Shown here one piece after another: positions 20,453 to 28,551 of a stretch of 28,551 nucleotides of DNA (the first letter of the stretch is position 1; the number at the start of each line of letters is the position of its first letter). Under the pieces are notes generated by a model. The model was not told the origin of the DNA. It ran no database searches and saw only the letters and a list, made by a program, of their open reading frames with translations. The position numbers and the translations under genes were made by a program. The DNA comes from Phycisphaerales bacterium (GTDB lineage: Bacteria; Planctomycetota; Phycisphaerae; Tepidisphaerales; Tepidisphaeraceae), in assembly GCA_028288875.1 (NCBI GenBank), contig JAQGHK010000536.1, positions 1-28,551 of the forward strand, given 5' to 3'.

Positions 20453-22435
20453 ATGAGAGGTCTTCGTCAAACGCACACGCGTGCGGTACTTCTGTTGGCC
20501 GGTGCGTTTGTCGTGTTAGCCATCGCGCGGCCGGTGGCGGCGGATACGACCGTCACCGCTGCAAACCTTCCGCTGAAATCCAGCGGCTCGGCCAGTGGGT
20601 CGAGCTGGAACCTCTCCACCAACGGCTATCTCGGCACGTATGTTCGCCTGGACAAGAGCGGCACGCTGAAGCTCACGATGAACGCGCTGGGCACCAGCTC
20701 CAAGGGCGTTGCCCCGGACCTGACGCTGGCGATCGCGGATTACAAGAAGTCCTTTGCCGTCACGAGCACGACCGGCGGCTACTACACATACACGTCGCCG
20801 ATCCTGCCGGCCGGGACGTACTTCGTTCGCACGCAGTTGGACAACAGCCGGACGGTTCGCCTGAACAACGCGCCGGTGACGCTTACACCGAAGCTGACGC
20901 TCAAGAGCCTGACGGTGGGCGCGAACGCGAAGGTGCTCAGCAGCAATACCGACGACAACGTCCGCGCGGCGGCCAATACGTATATCGATAACTTCCGCCA
21001 AGGCACGGCGACGCTGAAAATTCCCGGCCTGACCGCCGGCCAGGCCGTGCACGTGCGGCTGACGAACAATGCCTTCAAACTCGGCACCTATGTGCCCGGG
21101 ACCAGCCTGAACGACGTGAACGATTACCTGGGCAGCAACGCGCCGGCCGGCTCGCACGCAGCCAATTTTCAGTCGTTCATCAATGGGCGATTCAACTCGC
21201 TGGTCGCTTCCAATGCCGCAAAATGGGGATCGAACGAACCGAGCCAGGGCAATGTCGACATGGCCGGCTCGGACGCGATGATGGCCTATGCCCGCTCGCA
21301 CGGCATGCAGGCGCGCATGCACAACCTGCTCTGGGGCGACCAGCAGCCGGCGTTTGTGAACGACCTGGTCAGCCGGGCGCAGAACGGCGACGCGGGTGCG
21401 AAGACATCGCTCGTGAACGCGATCTCCCAGCGCATCACGTACACCGTCAGCTACAACAATTACATCAACGGCGCGACGCGCGGTAACACGTTCACGCAGA
21501 TGGACGTGCTGAACGAATCGCTGCACAACAGCAAGTATTGGAGGGTGCTGGGCGCATCCGGCGTGGCCGACATCTACAAGAAGACGGCCACGGCGCTGGC
21601 CGGCATTGGATCGAACGCGAAGCTGTATCTGAACGAGTACAACGTGCTGCAGTACTCGCCGAGCACGTATAGCACGAGCACCGGTACGCTCAGCGGCAGC
21701 GACTCGTACGCGAACTGGTACCGCCAACACATCACCGATGTGAACAACGCGGGCTTCGCCGCCGGCGGGACGAAGAACGTCGTGGGCGGGATCGGCATGC
21801 AGTATTACTCGACCACGTCGGGCAATATCCCCAGCGTCGGCACGATGCAGAAAGCGCTGCAGAACTTCTCCATTGAAGGCCTGCCCATGTCCCTGACGGA
21901 ATTCGGCGTGCAGGATACCGTCCGCGACGGCACGGCCCCGCAGATCATGGATGACGCCATCCGAATGATGATGGGCACGGCCGGCGTTGACACGTTCATG
22001 TACTGGGGCTGGGACCCGGGCGCGACCGATCGCCTCGGCAGCGGCTCCACGCTGGTGAATTCCAATTGGCGAAGGGCCGACGGCAGCTGGGATCTGACGG
22101 CTGTCGGGAAACGATTCGAATACCTGTACGGCCGTGGCCTGGATCCGACCGCGCCGGGGGCGAACGCCGATGGATCGAATCCGAAGCCGTGGTCGACGGA
22201 TCTCACGCGCACCGTGAACGCCGACGGCACGATTAATTTCAAAGGCTTCTACGGCGACTACGCGGTTGATGTCGGCGGGAAGACGTACAACTTTACGTTC
22301 AACAAAGGAACGAACAGCTACACGCTCCAGTCGAGCGCAGGCCGGCTGTTTGCGTCGGACATGCCAGAGCCGGTGGGGCTGGCGATTTTCGGTATGGCCG
22401 GCATGCTCGGCCTCCGGCGATCACGGAAGTGTTAG
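20453..22435 (+). CDS. GH10 family glycoside hydrolase (endo-1,4-beta-xylanase-like) with PEP-CTERM anchor
   Basis: Signal peptide; NAAKW, RMHNLLWG, DVLNE (acid/base), LNEYN, GIGMQ, LTEFG (nucleophile); C-terminal MPEPVGLAIFGMAGMLGLRRSRK. Confidence 0.88.
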   Translation: MRGLRQTHTRAVLLLAGAFVVLAIARPVAADTTVTAANLPLKSSGSASGSSWNLSTNGYLGTYVRLDKSGTLKLTMNALGTSSKGVAPDLTLAIADYKKSFAVTSTTGGYYTYTSPILPAGTYFVRTQLDNSRTVRLNNAPVTLTPKLTLKSLTVGANAKVLSSNTDDNVRAAANTYIDNFRQGTATLKIPGLTAGQAVHVRLTNNAFKLGTYVPGTSLNDVNDYLGSNAPAGSHAANFQSFINGRFNSLVASNAAKWGSNEPSQGNVDMAGSDAMMAYARSHGMQARMHNLLWGDQQPAFVNDLVSRAQNGDAGAKTSLVNAISQRITYTVSYNNYINGATRGNTFTQMDVLNESLHNSKYWRVLGASGVADIYKKTATALAGIGSNAKLYLNEYNVLQYSPSTYSTSTGTLSGSDSYANWYRQHITDVNNAGFAAGGTKNVVGGIGMQYYSTTSGNIPSVGTMQKALQNFSIEGLPMSLTEFGVQDTVRDGTAPQIMDDAIRMMMGTAGVDTFMYWGWDPGATDRLGSGSTLVNSNWRRADGSWDLTAVGKRFEYLYGRGLDPTAPGANADGSNPKPWSTDLTRTVNADGTINFKGFYGDYAVDVGGKTYNFTFNKGTNSYTLQSSAGRLFASDMPEPVGLAIFGMAGMLGLRRSRKC

Positions 22436-23610
22436 GCGGCCACGCGCCGCGTCCGCCGCAGGAGCACCGCAAAGCCGACCAACGAAAGCATCGCCGGCTC
22501 GGGAATTAAAATCGATCCGGCGAGATACGGGACGAGGAATTCGGCCTTCGGTGTGCCGAGGCCGGTGACCAAGTCATACCCCGTTGTTGCCGGAATCGGA
22601 TTGCTGCCGGTCGTGATGTCATTGAACGCCAGGGCGTAGTACGGCGTGTTGTAGAGCGCGTAGAGCATGGTCAGCGTCTGATCACCGGTCAATGATTCCA
22701 GCCCATTGGCGGCACGACCTTCGTTGGCTAACGCAATCAGGCCAGCCCACTGCGGCGCGCCGGCGCTCGTGCCGCCAATCTGAATGAAATTGGCGTCGCC
22801 GGTGCCGGTGCTGCCGTTGAGCTGGTTGTAGATGAGGAAACCTGTTTGCGGATCGGCGTCGTAGGCGACATCAGGCACGGTCCGATCGGGACCGTCATGG
22901 ACAGCGTCTTGGTACGCAGGTCGAGTGAAACTTGGACTGACACCACCGCCGGACTTGCTCCACGCCGTTTCGCCCGTGGCGGTGATGGTGGTGCCGCCGA
23001 CGGCCAGGACATGCGGCGAAGTCGCCGGGTAGTTCGCCTGTATGCCGCGATCGCCCGAGGCGGCCACGAAGCTCACTCCGGCGTGATTCGTTGGCTGCGT
23101 GAAGGCTTCATCGAAAAAGCTGTAGCCGCCGTAATCCTGACCGGCGAAGCTCATGCTGATGGCCGACACGCCCGGGACGGATTTGGCGTAACGAACGGCG
23201 GTGAACAGATTCGCATACGTTGGCGATTCGGCGGCGACGACCAGAATATTCGCCTGCGGCGCGATCGCATGGGCGTACTGGATATCGAGCGCGCTTTCGT
23301 ACTCCCAATCGTGAGAGCCGGTGGGTTCCTGAGACGGCAGCGTGCTGCCGCCCGTCTGGTTGACGATCGTCAGCGATGGCGCCGGCGTGAGGCCGAAGTG
23401 CGCGTCGAAGTACGCAAGGTCGGACGCAGTGCTGGGATCGGTGTAAGCGACGATCACGGCGATCGTCTGCCCGGCGCCGGTATTGGAAAGTTGATCGAAG
23501 CCATAAAACGAGCGGATGCTCGACGGCGTTTGGGCGGCGCCGAACGACGACGCAACAGCAATCGCCGACGCGAGACCGGCCGAAGCAATGCAACACGCCG
23601 ATCGCCGCAT
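22432..23610 (-). CDS. S53 (sedolisin/kumamolisin-like) serine peptidase with PEP-CTERM anchor
   Basis: ESALDIQ (Glu/Asp), ASGD (oxyanion Asp), GGTSAGAP (Ser), Ca-site DITTG...GYDLVTGLGTP; C-terminal IPEPAMLSLVGFAVLLRRTRR; SD AGGA. Confidence 0.9.
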   Translation of the reverse strand: MRRSACCIASAGLASAIAVASSFGAAQTPSSIRSFYGFDQLSNTGAGQTIAVIVAYTDPSTASDLAYFDAHFGLTPAPSLTIVNQTGGSTLPSQEPTGSHDWEYESALDIQYAHAIAPQANILVVAAESPTYANLFTAVRYAKSVPGVSAISMSFAGQDYGGYSFFDEAFTQPTNHAGVSFVAASGDRGIQANYPATSPHVLAVGGTTITATGETAWSKSGGGVSPSFTRPAYQDAVHDGPDRTVPDVAYDADPQTGFLIYNQLNGSTGTGDANFIQIGGTSAGAPQWAGLIALANEGRAANGLESLTGDQTLTMLYALYNTPYYALAFNDITTGSNPIPATTGYDLVTGLGTPKAEFLVPYLAGSILIPEPAMLSLVGFAVLLRRTRRVAA

Positions 23611-23790
23611 GGGTGAAATCCTGTCCGCTCGCGCCGCGACTCAATCATGCCACGTCTGGCCGATTCGGCAACGTCCGAGTTGGCGGGCGGATAATGCCCA
23701 TAGCCTGCCAAAACGGGCCAAGTGGCGGCCCATGAAGCACTTCGCGGGTTTATTCCGTTTAACCAATCGGCGGTTGCGCAGTGCTGCCCG

Positions 23791-25728
23791 TTAGAACGGA
23801 ACGGCTTGGTCCATCCAGTCGTCGCTGCGGAGCACCTGCTTGCGGTTGAAGCGGGCGAGGCGTTCGGCGCGGGCCTGGGCGAGGTTGATTAGGCGCTGGC
23901 CGCCGATCGCGCGCCACATTTTGCGGAAGCGCGGGGCATGGCGGATGAACAGTTCGTCCTCGGCGCTGGCAAAGGTCTGGGCACAGCCGGGATCGCCCTG
24001 ACGAGCGGCGCGGCCGTAGAGCTGGCGATCGATGCGGCCGCTGGGCTGGGGCTCGGTGTTGATCACGTGCAGGCCGCCGAGTTCGACGACGCCGCGACCG
24101 AGGTGAATGTCGGTCCCGCGGCCGGCCATGTTGGTGGCGACGGTGATTTTGCCGATCTGCCCGGCTTCGGCGATGACGTTGGCTTCCTGTGCGTTCTGCG
24201 CCGCGTTCAACACGCGGTGCGGCCGGCCGAGCGCGGTGAGGCGCTTGGACAGGTCTTCGCTGGCATACACGCTGCGCGTGCCGACGAGGACGGGAATACC
24301 CTTGTCGTTGAGCTCAATAATGCGCTCCATGATCGCTTCGTATTTATCCGCGGCCTTATCGAAAAAGCGCAACGGCAACTGAGTGCGAATGCACGGCTTG
24401 TTCGTCGGGATCTTCACGATCGGGCGCGTGTAGATCTGCCAGAATTCGGGCGCGCTTTCCCAGGCCGTGCCGGTCATGCCGCCCATTTCGGGGTATTGGC
24501 GGAAGAAACGCTGGAAGCTGATGCGCGCCAGGTTTTCCTTGTCGGCGGTGACCTTCACGTCTTCTTTGATTTCGATCGCCTGATGCAGGCCGTGCCGCCA
24601 GCTGCGGTCGGCCATCACGCGGCCGGTGAATTCGTCGATGATCTGAACCTTGCCGTCCGGGTCGATCAGATAATGCTCGTCGCGATGGAAGCAGTGCTTG
24701 GCCGTGAGAGCCTGCTGCACGAGTTCTTCGCGCCGGCGACTGCCTTTCCAGAAACCACTGGTATCGCTGGCGCAGATCTCATCGAGGTGGTCGCGGCCTT
24801 GCTCGGTGAACTCCACCTGGCGCACTTCAGTGTCGATCGTGAAATCGACATTCTTGATCATCAGGTCGGCCAGCGTAGTGGCGGCGCGGTAACGCTCGGC
24901 GTTGGGTTCGTCATCCGGCGAGTTGCTGATGATCAGCGGCGTGACGGCTTCATCAATCAGCAGGCTGTCGGCCTCATCAACAATCACCTTCGCCAGGCCG
25001 GGCACCAGCACACTGCTGCGCATGGCCGAACCGCCGAGCAGCGTGACGGCCGTCGCGCTGCTGCTGCGAAGCGTGCCGAGCATGATCTGGTCGCGCAGGA
25101 AGTCGGCCACCAGTTCTTTGCTGGTGACGTAAACGACGTTGCGACGGTAGATGTCGATGCGGTCGACGGCATCGGTATCGTGAATCACATAACCGGCCTT
25201 GTGGCCCATCATGCGATAAAGCGGCGTCATCAGTTCGGCGTCGCGCTGCACCAGGTAATCATTCACCGTGATGATGTGCACCGGCTTGCCGGAGAGCGCC
25301 ATGATGCTGGCACCGACGGCGGCGGTGAGGGTTTTGCCCTCGCCGGTGGCCATCTCGGCGACGGCGGCTTCGTGCATCGCCATCGCGCCCATCAATTGGA
25401 CGAGATAGGGCCGCTTGCCGATCGTGCGGACGGCGGCCTCGCGGGCGAGCGCGAACGCGTACAACAACTTCTCGTCTTGCAGCCGGCCCAGCCGCGCGAG
25501 CACGCGCACTTCTTCCACTTCCTCTTTGAACTTCGCGTCGGCCAGCTTCTGAACGTCCGGCTCCATCGCCTCGATCAGCTCGGCCTGGCGCTTGAGGCGC
25601 GGCAATACGCGGCGGCGATTCTTCACCCAGCCCGTCGCGGCGTGCGCGGGGATATCCAGGCCCTTGAGCTCAGGCGCTTTCACCCGGCGGGCATCGAAGA
25701 CGTTGTACAGTTCGGCGGCAGCGGTCAT
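23791..25728 (-). CDS. Truncated SecA paralogue (NBD1, preprotein-binding domain and NBD2 only); probably not the housekeeping SecA
   Basis: MATGEGKT, TVNDYLVQRD, DEADSLLIDEA, IIDEFTGR, GLHQAIEIKE, GMTGTA, VATNMAGRGTDI, RIDRQLYGRAARQGDPG. Only 645 aa; it ends at the start of the scaffold helix (RKQVLRSDD). Confidence 0.92.
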   Translation of the reverse strand: MTAAAELYNVFDARRVKAPELKGLDIPAHAATGWVKNRRRVLPRLKRQAELIEAMEPDVQKLADAKFKEEVEEVRVLARLGRLQDEKLLYAFALAREAAVRTIGKRPYLVQLMGAMAMHEAAVAEMATGEGKTLTAAVGASIMALSGKPVHIITVNDYLVQRDAELMTPLYRMMGHKAGYVIHDTDAVDRIDIYRRNVVYVTSKELVADFLRDQIMLGTLRSSSATAVTLLGGSAMRSSVLVPGLAKVIVDEADSLLIDEAVTPLIISNSPDDEPNAERYRAATTLADLMIKNVDFTIDTEVRQVEFTEQGRDHLDEICASDTSGFWKGSRRREELVQQALTAKHCFHRDEHYLIDPDGKVQIIDEFTGRVMADRSWRHGLHQAIEIKEDVKVTADKENLARISFQRFFRQYPEMGGMTGTAWESAPEFWQIYTRPIVKIPTNKPCIRTQLPLRFFDKAADKYEAIMERIIELNDKGIPVLVGTRSVYASEDLSKRLTALGRPHRVLNAAQNAQEANVIAEAGQIGKITVATNMAGRGTDIHLGRGVVELGGLHVINTEPQPSGRIDRQLYGRAARQGDPGCAQTFASAEDELFIRHAPRFRKMWRAIGGQRLINLAQARAERLARFNRKQVLRSDDWMDQAVPF

Positions 25729-25842: not shown

Positions 25843-28050
25843 TTAGCTTTGCGAGCTTTGCATCGTCAGCTGTTGGAACCAGCGGTACGCCTGCATGGCC
25901 AGCGGCTCGGGGTTGTTGCTCTTGAAGCGGACGTAGGCGCGCTGGCCGGGATAGAACAGCTCTTCGCCCGTTTTTTCGTCGCGAATCGGATTGTTGAAGA
26001 TCATGCGCGCTTCGTAATTCTGTGCTGCGGTGGTGGTGCCTTTGGGGTCGCTGGCGTCCGGAGCCTCGGTGCCGCCGCCGGCGTGCGTGAGGGCGGCCGA
26101 GCGAACTTCACGCTTGGCGGCCGGGCCGATGCGGATCTTGGTCGTCACTGGGACCACATGGTTGATATCGCCGGCCACGCGCAGCTCGGCGTGGTAGTTG
26201 CCGATGCCGACGTTATTCAGCCGGTCACGATCGGCCTGATCGATCAGGACGAACGCCTCCAGATCCTTCACCTGCGTCACCTCGGCTACTTCTTGCGCCT
26301 TGGGCAGGAACGAGCCTTTCAGGTTATCGATCTGCGGCGCGACTACGCGGCCGTTGATGGGCGAGCGGATTTCCAGCTTGCTGACTTTGTCTTTCTGCTC
26401 GTTGAGGATTTTAGTTAGCCGGGTTTGGCGTTCCAGATCAATCCCATACTTCGCGGCGTCGCCGACACGGCTGCTCTGCAGTTCCATGCCGACAACTTGA
26501 AGGTCGATCGCGCTGGTCAGCAGTTTGTTCGATTCGTCGTCGTTACGAAGCACGATGAGCAGCTGGCCTTGCTTCACGACTTCGCCGTCTTTGACGAGCA
26601 CCTTGTCGACAAAGCCGGGCGTTTCCACGCGCAGGGTCTGTCGGGCTGCGGCTTCAAGCACGCCTTCGGCGCGAACGGTAACGGGGAATTTCACGATACC
26701 GACGAGCGCGATCAGGATCGCGGCGACTGCAACGCTGAAGGCGACCGCCCGGCCGCGCTTGCGGTGCAGTTCGGGCTCGGTGGCCAGATACTTGGCGAAT
26801 TTGAACAGCGGGAAGATGGCGAAGGTGCCGAACGCCGTCGCGCCCATGATCAGGCCGACAACCTTGATTTCCTGTGGCAGCGTGAAGAACAGCATGTACG
26901 CGATCGCCAGGCTGACGAACACGCGGTAGCCGCTGCTGGCAATGGCGTAGACGAATAGTTCGATGCGCTGCTTCAGCGGCGGCAGCGGCTGCTGCTGCTT
27001 CACGCGGAAGATGTGCCGCTTGACCAGGCCCAGCGCGTATTCGCTGGCCTTGCGCTGCAGGTTCGGGATTTCCCAGAAGTCGGACAGGATGTAATAGCCG
27101 TCGTAACGCAGCAGCGGGTTGGCGTTGAAGACGATCGTGCTGACCGAGGCGATCAGCATCGTGTTGTAAGCGAGTTGATTGACCAGATTCGCGCCGCTGC
27201 CGTAGGTGGCTTTCCAGATAAAGGCGCAAATGGCGGCGACGAACAATTCAAAAATCATGCCGCCCGCACCTACGAACACGCGCTTCCACTTATTCGGGAA
27301 CGCCCAGGCCGTGCTCGCATCGACATAAGGCGTCGGCACGAGCACCAGCAGCATGATGCCCACTTCATGCACCTCGCCGCCGAAGCGACGACAGCTGAAC
27401 GCGTGGCCCATTTCGTGAATGAACTTGATGACGACGAACGTCACCCACAGCCAGGCCCAGTTACCCGGATCGATGGCGTTCTTCGCGGCGCCCTGCAGTT
27501 CGGTCCACATCGGAGCGATGCTGATGACCGCGGCGATGATCACGCCCAGCCACACGATCGCCCCAAGCCAGCTGAGCAGCAGGCGGATCGGCGGCATCCA
27601 GGTTTTGATGAACATGTCCGGATCCCACACGGGAATCCGCGGGAACAGGATGTTCATCAGCTTCTGCTGCATCTGCCGCTGGTTGTGCATCTTCTGCCGC
27701 TTGAGAACGACGGCCGAGTCGGGGGTGACGTCGGTCTCGATCAAGTTGGCGGCAAAGAGCTGTGACAGGATTTGAATGACTTCAGGTTGCGTGGGCGCGT
27801 CATCGGCGAGCTGGCCGCCGACGAGGTCCCAGGCTTCGCCAATGGTGCGGCTGCCATCGAGCAGGCCGACGAAGCGGTACGCCGGATCAGAAAGGCGATG
27901 GAACTGATTGCCGGCCGGATCGCGGACGACATACCAGCGCTCGCCGCGGAAATACTGACGGCTGATCTGCGCCGTCGGCCGAAGCCGCGGGCGCAGTTGG
28001 ACGACGCGGTACCAGGACTCCGAAAATGTGGGACGAAGGGCGAGGGTCAT
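25843..28050 (-). CDS. Fusion protein: PqqD/RRE-like N-terminal domain, M50 (site-2) metallopeptidase, HlyD-type periplasmic adaptor
   Basis: HEMGH (residues 212-216) and NANPLLRYDG M50 motifs with several TM helices. N-terminal winged-helix-like segment YVVRDP...LLDGSRTIGEAW...ILSQLFAANLI. C-terminal ETPGFVDKVLVKDGEVVKQGQLL, a coiled hairpin, and IRSPINGRVV. Confidence 0.88.
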   Translation of the reverse strand: MTLALRPTFSESWYRVVQLRPRLRPTAQISRQYFRGERWYVVRDPAGNQFHRLSDPAYRFVGLLDGSRTIGEAWDLVGGQLADDAPTQPEVIQILSQLFAANLIETDVTPDSAVVLKRQKMHNQRQMQQKLMNILFPRIPVWDPDMFIKTWMPPIRLLLSWLGAIVWLGVIIAAVISIAPMWTELQGAAKNAIDPGNWAWLWVTFVVIKFIHEMGHAFSCRRFGGEVHEVGIMLLVLVPTPYVDASTAWAFPNKWKRVFVGAGGMIFELFVAAICAFIWKATYGSGANLVNQLAYNTMLIASVSTIVFNANPLLRYDGYYILSDFWEIPNLQRKASEYALGLVKRHIFRVKQQQPLPPLKQRIELFVYAIASSGYRVFVSLAIAYMLFFTLPQEIKVVGLIMGATAFGTFAIFPLFKFAKYLATEPELHRKRGRAVAFSVAVAAILIALVGIVKFPVTVRAEGVLEAAARQTLRVETPGFVDKVLVKDGEVVKQGQLLIVLRNDDESNKLLTSAIDLQVVGMELQSSRVGDAAKYGIDLERQTRLTKILNEQKDKVSKLEIRSPINGRVVAPQIDNLKGSFLPKAQEVAEVTQVKDLEAFVLIDQADRDRLNNVGIGNYHAELRVAGDINHVVPVTTKIRIGPAAKREVRSAALTHAGGGTEAPDASDPKGTTTAAQNYEARMIFNNPIRDEKTGEELFYPGQRAYVRFKSNNPEPLAMQAYRWFQQLTMQSSQS

Positions 28051-28168: not shown

Positions 28169-28551
28169 TTAAATCCACAGTTTCAGGCGCGTCCACTCCC
28201 AGAGCCGGTGCAGGCCGTGCCAGTAGAGCGGCTTCTTTTCGACATCGATCCGGGCTTCGCCGAGCTGGCCAGGCTGCCACTTGGCATCGAAGCCATCGAT
28301 GCGGGCGTACACGCGGAACGTGTTGGCCGCTTCCTTGGTTTCGCCCAGCGGCACGATGCGGGTGATTTCAACCGCGTGGCGTTCGTTCGGGCTGCTCTTG
28401 GTGGCCAGGGTGCCGGTGCTGCCGACTTTCAGAAGCTGAATGTCACGTTCGTTGACGGTCAGCTCGCTCTGCAGGTCACCTTTGTGGCCGATGGGGGCGA
28501 TTTCCATGAGGGCGTCGCCCTCTTTGACTTGGCTGTTGATCTTTTCTTTCA
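28169..28551 (-). CDS. HlyD/efflux periplasmic adaptor protein, C-terminal part (5' end outside the window)
   Basis: The frame is open to the window edge: ...KEKINSQVKEGDALMEIAP...ELTVNERDIQLLKVGSTG...WQPGQLGEARIDVEKKPLYWHGLHRLWEWTRLKLWI*. This is a lipoyl-like half plus a beta-barrel tail typical of adaptor proteins. ATG 28507 in the track is internal. Confidence 0.85.
   Translation of the reverse strand, partial: KEKINSQVKEGDALMEIAPIGHKGDLQSELTVNERDIQLLKVGSTGTLATKSSPNERHAVEITRIVPLGETKEAANTFRVYARIDGFDAKWQPGQLGEARIDVEKKPLYWHGLHRLWEWTRLKLWI

What the first reader, a model, noticed from the sequence alone, without database searches (positions are those of the whole stretch)
23791..25728. SecA paralogue ends exactly where the SecY-engaging machinery begins
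Seen: after motif VI (GRAARQGDPG) only about 55 residues remain. They end in INLAQARAERLARFNRKQVLRSDDWMDQAVPF, which resembles the first part of the helical scaffold of canonical SecA (AQRKVE..NF..RKQLLEYDD). Established: canonical SecA (about 800-900 aa) continues with the rest of the scaffold, the wing domain, the two-helix finger that inserts into SecY and the C-terminal tail. Inference: this ATPase keeps its preprotein-binding domain but cannot drive SecYEG in the standard way and lacks the IRA1 autoinhibitory hairpin, so it probably works with a different partner. The clean stop with no downstream remnant in the 180-bp gap argues against a recent pseudogene.
Basis: partly seen in the sequence, partly recalled or inferred. 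Interest (0 to 1): 0.72.

Follow-up and report, generated by a model that had tools for sequence, protein, structure and literature searches.

The report
Short SecA motor, ABC-less exporter
This gene encodes a naturally shortened second copy of the protein-export motor SecA; the family and its operon of membrane-protease and adaptor genes were described by computer in 2015 but never tested, and the operon probably exports proteins that carry an unusual N-terminal 'LEPR-XLL' tag.

Summary
ORF 23791-25728 (-) encodes a 645-aa SecA paralogue with an intact DEAD motor and preprotein cross-linking domain. It stops inside the first long scaffold helix, at about B. subtilis SecA residue 610. The wing domain, two-helix finger/IRA1 and zinc tail are missing.

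It is not a pseudogene. dN/dS is 0.09-0.14, and 0.05-0.10 in the tail. Of the 150 nearest 50%-identity representatives, 146 end within about 10 residues of the same point. A canonical 1352-aa SecA lies elsewhere in the genome.

The gene follows an RRE-like/M50/HlyD fusion gene, as in 15 of 16 loci from Planctomycetota, Verrucomicrobiota and Proteobacteria. The two adaptor genes that complete the operon lie partly on the abutting contig C220.

[quoted passage not shown] This scan has also reported it on other DNA.

What I checked beyond the paper: LEPR-XLL-tagged proteins, some over 10,000 aa, abut the module elsewhere. In 201 genomes of the phylum, the tag occurs in 22 of 25 genomes with this module and in 1 of 144 genomes with no such fusion gene. 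This genome has three candidate cargo proteins.

The parts
23791..25728 (-). [quoted passage not shown]
25615..25728 (-). N-terminal extension, residues 1-38, upstream of the part that aligns with canonical SecA; low model confidence (pLDDT about 60) but dN/dS 0-0.1
25330..25353 (-). Walker A motif MATGEGKT (residues 126-133); T128, G129, E130, G131 and K132 are invariant in 51 family members
25000..25080 (-). Family-specific insert in NBD1 (residues 217-243) that canonical SecA lacks; pLDDT about 58
24967..24978 (-). DEAD box (residues 251-254); D251, E252 and D254 invariant
24571..24900 (-). Preprotein cross-linking domain (PPXD), residues 277-386
   Evidence: PF01043, E 1.4e-27, profile positions 3-110 of 110
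23929..24396 (-). NBD2 (residues 445 to about 600), with motif V TNMAGRGTD at 24109-24135 and motif VI GRAARQGDPG at 23986-24015
23803..23901 (-). Terminal helix, residues 610-642: the retained stub of the long scaffold (HSD) helix. R629 is kept in 149 of 150 representatives; dN/dS 0.05-0.10
23611..23790 (.). 180-nt spacer after the stop codon; no remnant of a SecA C-terminus
25843..28050 (-). Upstream gene of the operon (735 aa, P0002): RRE-like N-terminal domain, M50-type membrane metalloprotease (HExxH at H212/E213/H216, invariant) and periplasmic HlyD-type adaptor. Conserved partner of the short secA
28169..28549 (-). C-terminal 126 residues of the large (about 650-aa) HlyD-type adaptor. 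The gene runs off the contig and continues on contig C220 of the same assembly, which also carries the small adaptor gene

Best explanation
P0001 is a working ATPase derived from SecA. It keeps NBD1, PPXD, NBD2 and a stub of the scaffold helix, and it has left the SecYEG pathway. It serves as the cytoplasmic motor of a four-gene envelope-spanning exporter: a small HlyD adaptor, a large HlyD adaptor, an RRE-like/M50-protease/HlyD fusion, and the short SecA. This exporter resembles a type I secretion system with no ABC transporter.

Proposed mechanism (inferred, not shown): cargo proteins carry an N-terminal 'LEPR-XLL' leader instead of a Sec signal peptide. The cytoplasmic N-terminal domain of the M50 fusion binds the leader, and the M50 site cuts it. 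The short SecA holds the unfolded chain in its PPXD/NBD2 clamp and uses ATP to feed it, N-terminus first, into the membrane part of the machine. The three adaptors, together with a TolC-type channel encoded in or outside the locus, carry it across the periplasm and outer membrane.

Shown here: the domain content, the conserved endpoint, purifying selection, the conserved gene order, and the co-occurrence and adjacency with LEPR-XLL proteins.
Inferred: ATPase activity, physical docking, direction of transport, leader cleavage, and independence from SecYEG.
For: Motor intact: the Walker A, DEAD, motif III, V and VI residues are invariant in 51 members that share as little as 36% identity. The fold matches SecA at Z 40-43.

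Under selection: dN/dS is 0.09-0.14 overall and 0.05-0.10 in the tail.

One old family with one endpoint. In a tree, 30 short and 66 canonical SecAs are split by one branch with SH-aLRT 100.

A canonical SecA with SecA_SW and a zinc tail is present elsewhere in the genome.

Synteny: the M50/HlyD fusion gene lies directly upstream in 15 of 16 loci from Planctomycetota, Verrucomicrobiota and Proteobacteria. In a sample of 201 genomes of the phylum, 22 of the 28 best-scoring fusion genes have a short secA within about 200 bp, and 5 more sit at contig ends. TolC-type OEP genes lie in some loci.

The operon is complete in this genome once contig C220 is joined.

Cargo: giant DUF4347/RTX genes with a LEPR-XLL motif abut the module in A. 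piechaudii (10,915 aa), G251 (11,128 aa), L009, L021 and G398 (5,105 aa). In Humisphaera borealis, the genome's only DUF4347 gene (7,632 aa) starts 14 kb from the short secA.

Co-occurrence in the phylum sample: LEPR-XLL is found in 22 of 25 genomes with the best-scoring class of fusion (which includes this window's), 3 of 32 with only lower-scoring fusions, and 1 of 144 with none.

This genome encodes LEPR-XLL-like N-termini with no hydrophobic signal-peptide core on contigs C25, C124 and C409.

The same role for the ATPase was proposed independently by Kamneva et al. 2015.
Against: Nothing has been tested biochemically, here or in the searched literature.

A second class of M50/HlyD modules (OEP, HlyD, HlyD, M50/HlyD) sits beside LEPR-XLL/DUF4347 giants with no SecA-like gene and no other ATPase in the locus. 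The machine can therefore exist without a linked short SecA.

In some large complete planctomycete genomes (G333, G358, G419) and in L010, short SecAs and fusions are both present but unlinked.

An M50 domain of about 7-8 membrane helices has no precedent as a protein-conducting channel.

No DUF4347 giant was found in this 79%-complete assembly, and the three candidate cargo genes are unlinked. Two of them score below the family cut-off.

Genomes in the co-occurrence counts are related, so the P values overstate the case.
Confidence: 0.55

Rival explanations
1. Cytoplasmic targeting factor or unfoldase, not a translocation motor. The short SecA binds LEPR-XLL cargo, co- or post-translationally, keeps it unfolded and hands it to the membrane machine. 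Transport itself is driven by something else, such as proton-motive force or extracellular Ca2+-dependent folding of the RTX repeats.
For: The PPXD and the clamp are kept, while every element that canonical SecA inserts into the channel is gone. SecA-less modules with the same cargo type exist, so a linked motor is not obligatory. Many cargo proteins carry RTX repeats.
Against: The catalytic motifs are strictly conserved, and the gene is tightly coupled to the membrane fusion gene (intergenic gaps of 0-200 nt, sometimes overlapping). Both features fit a stoichiometric machine part.
Confidence: 0.2
2. Accessory SecA that still uses SecYEG, alone or as a heterodimer with the canonical SecA, as in the 'SecA2-only' systems of actinobacteria. 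It would deliver a special set of substrates across the inner membrane, and the M50/HlyD/TolC parts would then act in the periplasm.
For: LEPR-XLL cargo must cross the inner membrane somehow. SecA-less modules could rely on the housekeeping SecA. Kamneva et al. place the clade next to actinobacterial SecA2.
Against: There is no wing domain, no two-helix finger and no C-terminal tail. From memory, the E. coli N68 truncation is inactive in translocation. The protein scores below the cut-off of every NCBIfam SecA and SecA2 model. The cargo N-termini seen here have no hydrophobic core. No secY2 or asp-type gene is in the locus.
Confidence: 0.12
3. ATP-dependent feeder for the M50 protease. The motor threads the leader or whole substrates into the intramembrane active site, by analogy with AAA+ partners of proteases. 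Its role would be maturation or quality control rather than export.
For: It is always paired with a protease domain whose HExxH and NPxxxxDG-type motifs are invariant. That domain is related to RiPP leader peptidases (daptide HExxH protease, E 4.7e-43).
Against: Three HlyD-type adaptors, and OEP genes in some loci, point to transport across the envelope.
Confidence: 0.1
4. Decaying fragment of a duplicated secA (pseudogene).
For: Only the truncation itself.
Against: dN/dS is about 0.1, in the tail as well. The endpoint is conserved across phyla. All catalytic residues are kept and no remnant follows the stop.
Confidence: 0.01

Closest known systems
'Secondary SecA_DEAD domain proteins' and their conserved locus (Kamneva, Poudel & Ward, PLoS One 2015, PMC4452313)
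   Same: The same architecture (SecA_DEAD plus PPXD, with SecA_SW absent or a small fragment). The same clade apart from canonical SecA. The same neighbours (GAF/HlyD, Peptidase_M50/HlyD, HlyD, sometimes OEP). The same phyla. The same proposed role as the ATPase replacing an ABC transporter.
   Different: The paper names no cargo, does not describe the RRE-like domain, and reports no test. Phycisphaerae/Tepidisphaerales members such as this one were not in their data set as far as I read.
Swiss-Prot 'Protein translocase subunit SecA 2/3' of Gram-negative bacteria (Q3AQA7 Chlorobium chlorochromatii, Q2YAJ4 Nitrosospira multiformis, A0L9N3/A0L9Q5 Magnetococcus marinus, Q5LPY3 Ruegeria pomeroyi, Q2L0B4 Bordetella avium, Q7UWI5 Rhodopirellula baltica)
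   Same: 649-666 aa, the same fold over the whole length (TM 0.76-0.93), 38-42% identity.
   Different: These entries are named by similarity only. No paper in the searched library mentions these accessions.
Canonical SecA (own genome P0287; B. subtilis 1M6N/6ITC, E. coli 2FSF, T. maritima 3DIN)
   Same: DEAD motor, PPXD and the start of the scaffold helix; 36-41% identity; Z 30-43.
   Different: It lacks the rest of the scaffold, the wing domain, the two-helix finger/IRA1 and the zinc-binding tail. It has a 27-residue insert in NBD1 and a 38-residue N-terminal extension. It is below the curated cut-offs.
E. coli SecA-N68, an engineered C-terminal truncation (PDB 5K9T)
   Same: A motor-plus-PPXD fragment; Z 40.8 over 517 residues. 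From memory, N68 has deregulated, elevated ATPase activity and does not translocate.
   Different: N68 is a laboratory construct that ends about 50 residues earlier (E. coli residue 610, from memory). The natural protein keeps the scaffold-helix stub, which is under selection.
Accessory SecA2 of Gram-positive bacteria (M. tuberculosis 4UAQ, C. difficile 6SXH)
   Same: A second, non-essential SecA paralogue for special substrates.
   Different: Those proteins keep the scaffold and the two-helix finger (about 780 aa) and work with SecYEG or SecY2. This protein scores 437-499 bits against cut-offs of 725-1100.
SecA_DEAD/PPXD domains without scaffold and wing embedded in giant proteins of Omnitrophota and Actinobacteria (bioRxiv 10.1101/2023.11.21.568195)
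   Same: A SecA motor without SecA_SW, linked to giant surface proteins and proposed to export them.
   Different: There the motor is a domain of the giant protein itself. Here it is a separate 645-aa protein in an adaptor/protease operon.
Type I secretion systems (HlyB-HlyD-TolC; LapBCE for giant RTX adhesins)
   Same: HlyD-type adaptors, a TolC-type channel in some loci, and RTX-repeat or giant cargo.
   Different: There is no ABC transporter. The cargo tag is N-terminal (LEPR-XLL) rather than C-terminal. The ATPase belongs to helicase superfamily 2.

Membership tests
Canonical SecA (NCBIfam TIGR00963 / NF009538) | DEAD-type motor with Walker A, DEAD, motifs III, V and VI | tested here: met
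   PF07517 E 2.7e-90 and PF21090 E 8e-48; motif residues invariant
Canonical SecA (NCBIfam TIGR00963 / NF009538) | Preprotein cross-linking domain inserted in NBD1 | tested here: met
   PF01043 E 1.4e-27, full profile length
Canonical SecA (NCBIfam TIGR00963 / NF009538) | Scaffold and wing domains with the two-helix finger (Pfam SecA_SW) | tested here: not met
   No PF07516 hit. The alignment to canonical SecA stops at its residue 828 of 1352. The model ends at B. subtilis residue 610.
Canonical SecA (NCBIfam TIGR00963 / NF009538) | Score above the curated equivalog cut-off | tested here: not met
   561 bits against a cut-off of 814; 544 against 800
Canonical SecA (NCBIfam TIGR00963 / NF009538) | ATP-driven translocation through SecYEG | not testable with these tools
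   Needs biochemistry or genetics
Secondary SecA_DEAD domain proteins (Kamneva et al. 2015) | SecA_DEAD protein additional to the canonical SecA, with SecA_SW absent or only a small fragment | tested here: met
Secondary SecA_DEAD domain proteins (Kamneva et al. 2015) | Belongs to a clade separate from canonical SecAs, shared by Planctomycetes, Verrucomicrobia, Proteobacteria and Chlorobi | tested here: met
   One branch with SH-aLRT 100 splits 30 short from 66 canonical rows; the short rows have long branches, so attraction cannot be ruled out. Taxa come from record titles and Swiss-Prot.
Secondary SecA_DEAD domain proteins (Kamneva et al. 2015) | Encoded in a locus with Peptidase_M50/HlyD, (GAF-)HlyD and HlyD proteins | tested here: met
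   The M50/HlyD fusion is directly upstream. The large and small adaptors lie on the window end plus contig C220. I did not test this genome's large adaptor for a GAF domain.
Accessory SecA2 of Gram-positive bacteria (TIGR03714, TIGR04221, TIGR04397, NF012136) | Score above the curated cut-off | tested here: not met
   480/930, 437/725, 499/1085 and 368/1100 bits
Accessory SecA2 of Gram-positive bacteria (TIGR03714, TIGR04221, TIGR04397, NF012136) | Retains the scaffold and two-helix finger; works with SecY or SecY2 | tested here: not met
   The scaffold is truncated. No secY2 or asp genes were seen in 16 loci. The partnership itself is not testable here.
Type I secretion system | ABC-transporter ATPase in the inner membrane | tested here: not met
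   No ABC transporter gene in the conserved module of any locus read. Kamneva et al. report the same.
Type I secretion system | HlyD-type membrane fusion protein | tested here: met
   HlyD_3, Biotin_lipoyl_2 and RND_mfp hits in P0002; adaptor genes found
Type I secretion system | TolC-type outer-membrane channel | tested here: inconclusive
   OEP genes lie in some related loci (L011, L095, L096). I did not look for one in this genome.

The most novel reading that the evidence does not exclude
The short SecA, the RRE-like/M50/HlyD fusion, two further adaptors and a TolC-type channel together form a distinct class of secretion system. In it, a SecA-derived superfamily-2 ATPase replaces the ABC transporter. 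Cargo, from proteins of about 300 aa to giants of over 10,000 aa, is selected by an N-terminal LEPR-XLL leader that the M50 domain removes. Neither the cargo link nor the leader logic appears in the searched literature.
Probability: 0.45. Interest if true: 0.85.

Novelty: new member of a known kind. Interest (0 to 1): 0.45.

Why it matters
SecA is the textbook motor of the general secretory pathway. Here the same motor has been cut down to its ATPase and substrate clamp and joined to type-I-like envelope parts. This has happened across at least four phyla, and the module occurs in roughly a quarter of the planctomycete genomes sampled. If the proposed mechanism holds, it adds a secretion route with a new energy source and a new N-terminal targeting tag. 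It would also explain how some of the largest known bacterial proteins leave the cell. The family has had a computational description since 2015 and no experiment. The concrete cargo candidates and culturable carriers listed here make it directly testable.

Tried and rejected
1. Complex prediction of the short SecA with residues 1-157 of the M50 fusion gave no verdict (score 0.28, mark 0.32, controls not run). This says nothing either way.

2. phmmer of the last 61 residues against PDB sequences found no SecA chain. The tail's likeness to the scaffold helix shows only by profile alignment and by fold.

It returned mostly canonical SecAs; only about 12 of the 80 loci were short forms.

4. The listing of cluster members gave almost no taxonomy for distant representatives.

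5. DUF4347 as a general cargo marker: it is absent from this assembly and from 9 of the 10 planctomycete or verrucomicrobial genomes checked besides this one. The exception is Humisphaera borealis. It was present in 3 of the 4 proteobacterial genomes checked in the same calls. The LEPR-XLL motif proved the better marker.

6. I first took the 121-aa gene between the adaptor and the M50 fusion in L006 and L007 for a possible precursor. It looks like a VapD-type insert and is absent from this window and from Humisphaera borealis.

7. Early literature searches (SecA+M50+HlyD; SecA+Planctomycetes+paralog; 'truncated SecA'; the Swiss-Prot accessions) missed the 2015 paper. A note from this scan gave the lead, and I then read the paper myself.

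8. Pseudogene reading: rejected.
Full report
**Observation**

The minus-strand ORF 23791-25728 encodes 645 residues. Pfam finds the SecA DEAD-like domain (36-430), the preprotein cross-linking domain (277-386) and the second nucleotide-binding domain (from 445). It finds no scaffold/wing domain, SecA_SW. The protein scores far below the curated cut-offs of all NCBIfam SecA and SecA2 models.

A profile of 51 family members was aligned to the genome's own canonical SecA (1352 aa, contig C370). Residues 42-638 pair with canonical 55-828. The tail ...RKQVLRSDDW lies on canonical ...RKNLLDYDEV, and the canonical protein then continues for 524 residues, ending in a CPCGSGKKYKNCHG zinc motif.

The AlphaFold2 model (pLDDT 88) ends in one helix, 610-642. 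Structural alignment puts the C-terminus at B. subtilis SecA residue 610 and E. coli residue about 659. The protein therefore keeps most of the first long scaffold helix and lacks everything after it. Otherwise the description is accurate.

**Not a pseudogene**

- The 180-nt spacer after the stop holds no SecA-like remnant, and neither does the rest of the window.
- Against orthologues at dS 0.6-0.9, dN/dS is 0.09-0.14 for the whole gene and 0.05-0.10 for the last 40 codons.
- The 120 nearest proteins are 643-664 aa long.
- Of the 150 best representatives of 50%-identity clusters, 145 are 620-700 aa. R629 is kept in 149, and 146 end 7-16 residues after the W638 column.
- All ATPase motifs are invariant.
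- In a tree of 96 sequences, the 30 short forms are separated from 66 canonical SecAs by one branch with SH-aLRT 100. The short forms sit on long branches, so this grouping alone should be read with care.

**Context**

The gene directly upstream (25843-28050) encodes a 735-aa fusion protein with three parts:
- a conserved cytoplasmic N-terminal domain, with a weak PqqD/RRE-type hit;
- an M50-type membrane metalloprotease with an invariant HExxH, related to RiPP leader peptidases;
- a periplasmic HlyD-type adaptor.

The window then ends inside a large adaptor gene. Contig C220 of the same assembly carries residues 1-527 of that adaptor and, upstream of it, a small adaptor gene, so the four-gene operon is complete in this genome.

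The same order occurs in 15 of 16 loci with a short SecA. These come from Tepidisphaerales, Phycisphaerales, Planctomycetaceae, Opitutaceae, Burkholderiales, Gammaproteobacteria and Achromobacter piechaudii. In 201 sampled genomes of the phylum, 57 have such a fusion gene. Of the 28 best-scoring fusion genes, 22 have a short secA within about 200 bp and 5 sit at contig ends. In a few large genomes the two genes are unlinked.

**Prior art**

A note from this scan pointed to Kamneva, Poudel & Ward 2015 (PMC4452313), which I then read. The paper covers all of the following:
- It describes 'secondary SecA_DEAD domain proteins' that lack SecA_SW or keep a small fragment of it.
- It describes their locus with GAF/HlyD, Peptidase_M50/HlyD and HlyD proteins.
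- It notes that no ABC transporter is present.
- It proposes that the SecA-like protein supplies the ATPase and the M50 protein the membrane passage.

No experimental follow-up was found. Members are also in Swiss-Prot as 'SecA 2/3'. A 2023 preprint reports SecA motors without scaffold and wing inside giant proteins.

**What goes beyond the paper**

Giant genes with an N-terminal DUF4347 domain and RTX repeats abut the module or lie close to it:
- a 10,915-aa ORF ends just before the adaptor gene in A. piechaudii;
- an 11,128-aa ORF does the same in G251;
- ORFs of more than 7,577 aa (L009) and 5,105 aa (G398) start just after the module;
- the only DUF4347 gene of Humisphaera borealis (7,632 aa) starts 14 kb from its short secA.

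Their N-termini carry the short 'LEPR-XLL' motif (NCBIfam NF012209) or a close variant, and none has a hydrophobic signal-peptide core.

In the phylum sample, the motif scores above its cut-off in:
- 22 of 25 genomes with the best-scoring class of fusion, the class this window belongs to;
- 3 of 32 genomes with only lower-scoring fusions;
- 1 of 144 genomes without a fusion.

It scores above the cut-off in none of the 14 control genomes. The genomes are related, so the P values overstate the case, but the positives span at least 14 family codes.

This genome has one hit above the cut-off: a protein with RTX repeats and a calpain-like protease domain on contig C25. Two look-alikes lie below it, on contigs C124 and C409. 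Earlier follow-ups of this scan reached the same cargo reading on other genomes. My counts are an independent check, not independent discovery.

**Complication**

In Burkholderiales, a second class of module (OEP, HlyD, HlyD, M50/HlyD) lies beside other LEPR-XLL/DUF4347 giants with no SecA-like gene and no other ATPase gene in the locus. In five genomes, all seven DUF4347 genes lie within 15 kb of an M50/HlyD fusion. The tag therefore seems tied to the fusion protein, and the short SecA is an add-on of one class. This keeps the chaperone/unfoldase and SecYEG-assisted readings alive.

**Verdict**

The protein is a real, selected, motor-only SecA, and a new member of a known but untested family. 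The most likely role (0.55) is ATPase of an ABC-less, type-I-like exporter for LEPR-XLL-tagged proteins. Docking, direction of transport, leader cleavage and independence from SecYEG are inferred. The one complex prediction gave no verdict.

Noticed in passing
window 28169-28551 and contig C220 of the same assembly (L101:2-2413): The window's contig ends inside the large adaptor gene. C220 carries residues 1-527 of that adaptor on its minus strand from position 1585 down to 2, and the small adaptor at 2413-1652. A divergent TPP-enzyme gene follows, as in the syntenic relative L007. The two contigs abut: the last 12 nt of the window match the first 12 nt of C220 at 11 of 12 positions.
   Followed up: yes
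own genome, C25:5102 onward (L097:1435-3054); C124 (L098:1-1692, minus strand); C409 (L099:2-688, minus strand): Three proteins have a LEPR-XLL-like motif 25-65 residues from the start (LESRMLMA, LEQRALLSA, LERRSLMSA) and no hydrophobic signal core. One has ten RTX repeats and a calpain-like cysteine protease motif. These are candidate cargo of the module in this genome.
   Followed up: partly
L095 (A. piechaudii G001:C12:12000-30000) and L096 (G135:C2:844000-862000): SecA-less sister modules (OEP, HlyD, HlyD, M50/HlyD) lie directly beside giant DUF4347/LEPR-XLL genes, with no ATPase gene in the locus. What powers them is unexplained.
   Followed up: partly
L008:1055-5110 (own genome C370), canonical secA: The housekeeping SecA is 1352 aa, with large insertions in NBD1, PPXD and NBD2 and a split SecA_SW match. 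This fits the planctomycete SecA_SW rearrangements noted in PMC4452313.
   Followed up: no
window 22432-23610 (-): The gene after the 180-nt spacer encodes a 392-aa subtilase-like peptidase (Peptidase_S8, E 8e-11). It has a signal-peptide-like start and a C-terminal PEP...hydrophobic...RRTRR tail typical of PEP-CTERM sorting. It is not a conserved neighbour of the module.
   Followed up: no
L006:7240-7608 and L007:7283-7648: In two close relatives, a 121-aa gene is inserted between the large adaptor and the M50 fusion. By eye it resembles VapD/Cas2-like proteins. It is absent here and in Humisphaera borealis.
   Followed up: no
window 25000-25080 (-), residues 217-243: The short SecA family has a 27-residue insert in NBD1, between the helicase motifs and the DEAD box, that canonical SecA lacks. 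It has low model confidence and is a possible docking loop.
   Followed up: no
G264, G309, G313, G364, G406, G455 (phylum sample): Some Phycisphaerae-type genomes carry 6-17 LEPR-XLL-tagged ORFs of ordinary size (about 120-2,000 aa). In this phylum the pathway may therefore serve a whole family of secreted proteins, not only giants.
   Followed up: no
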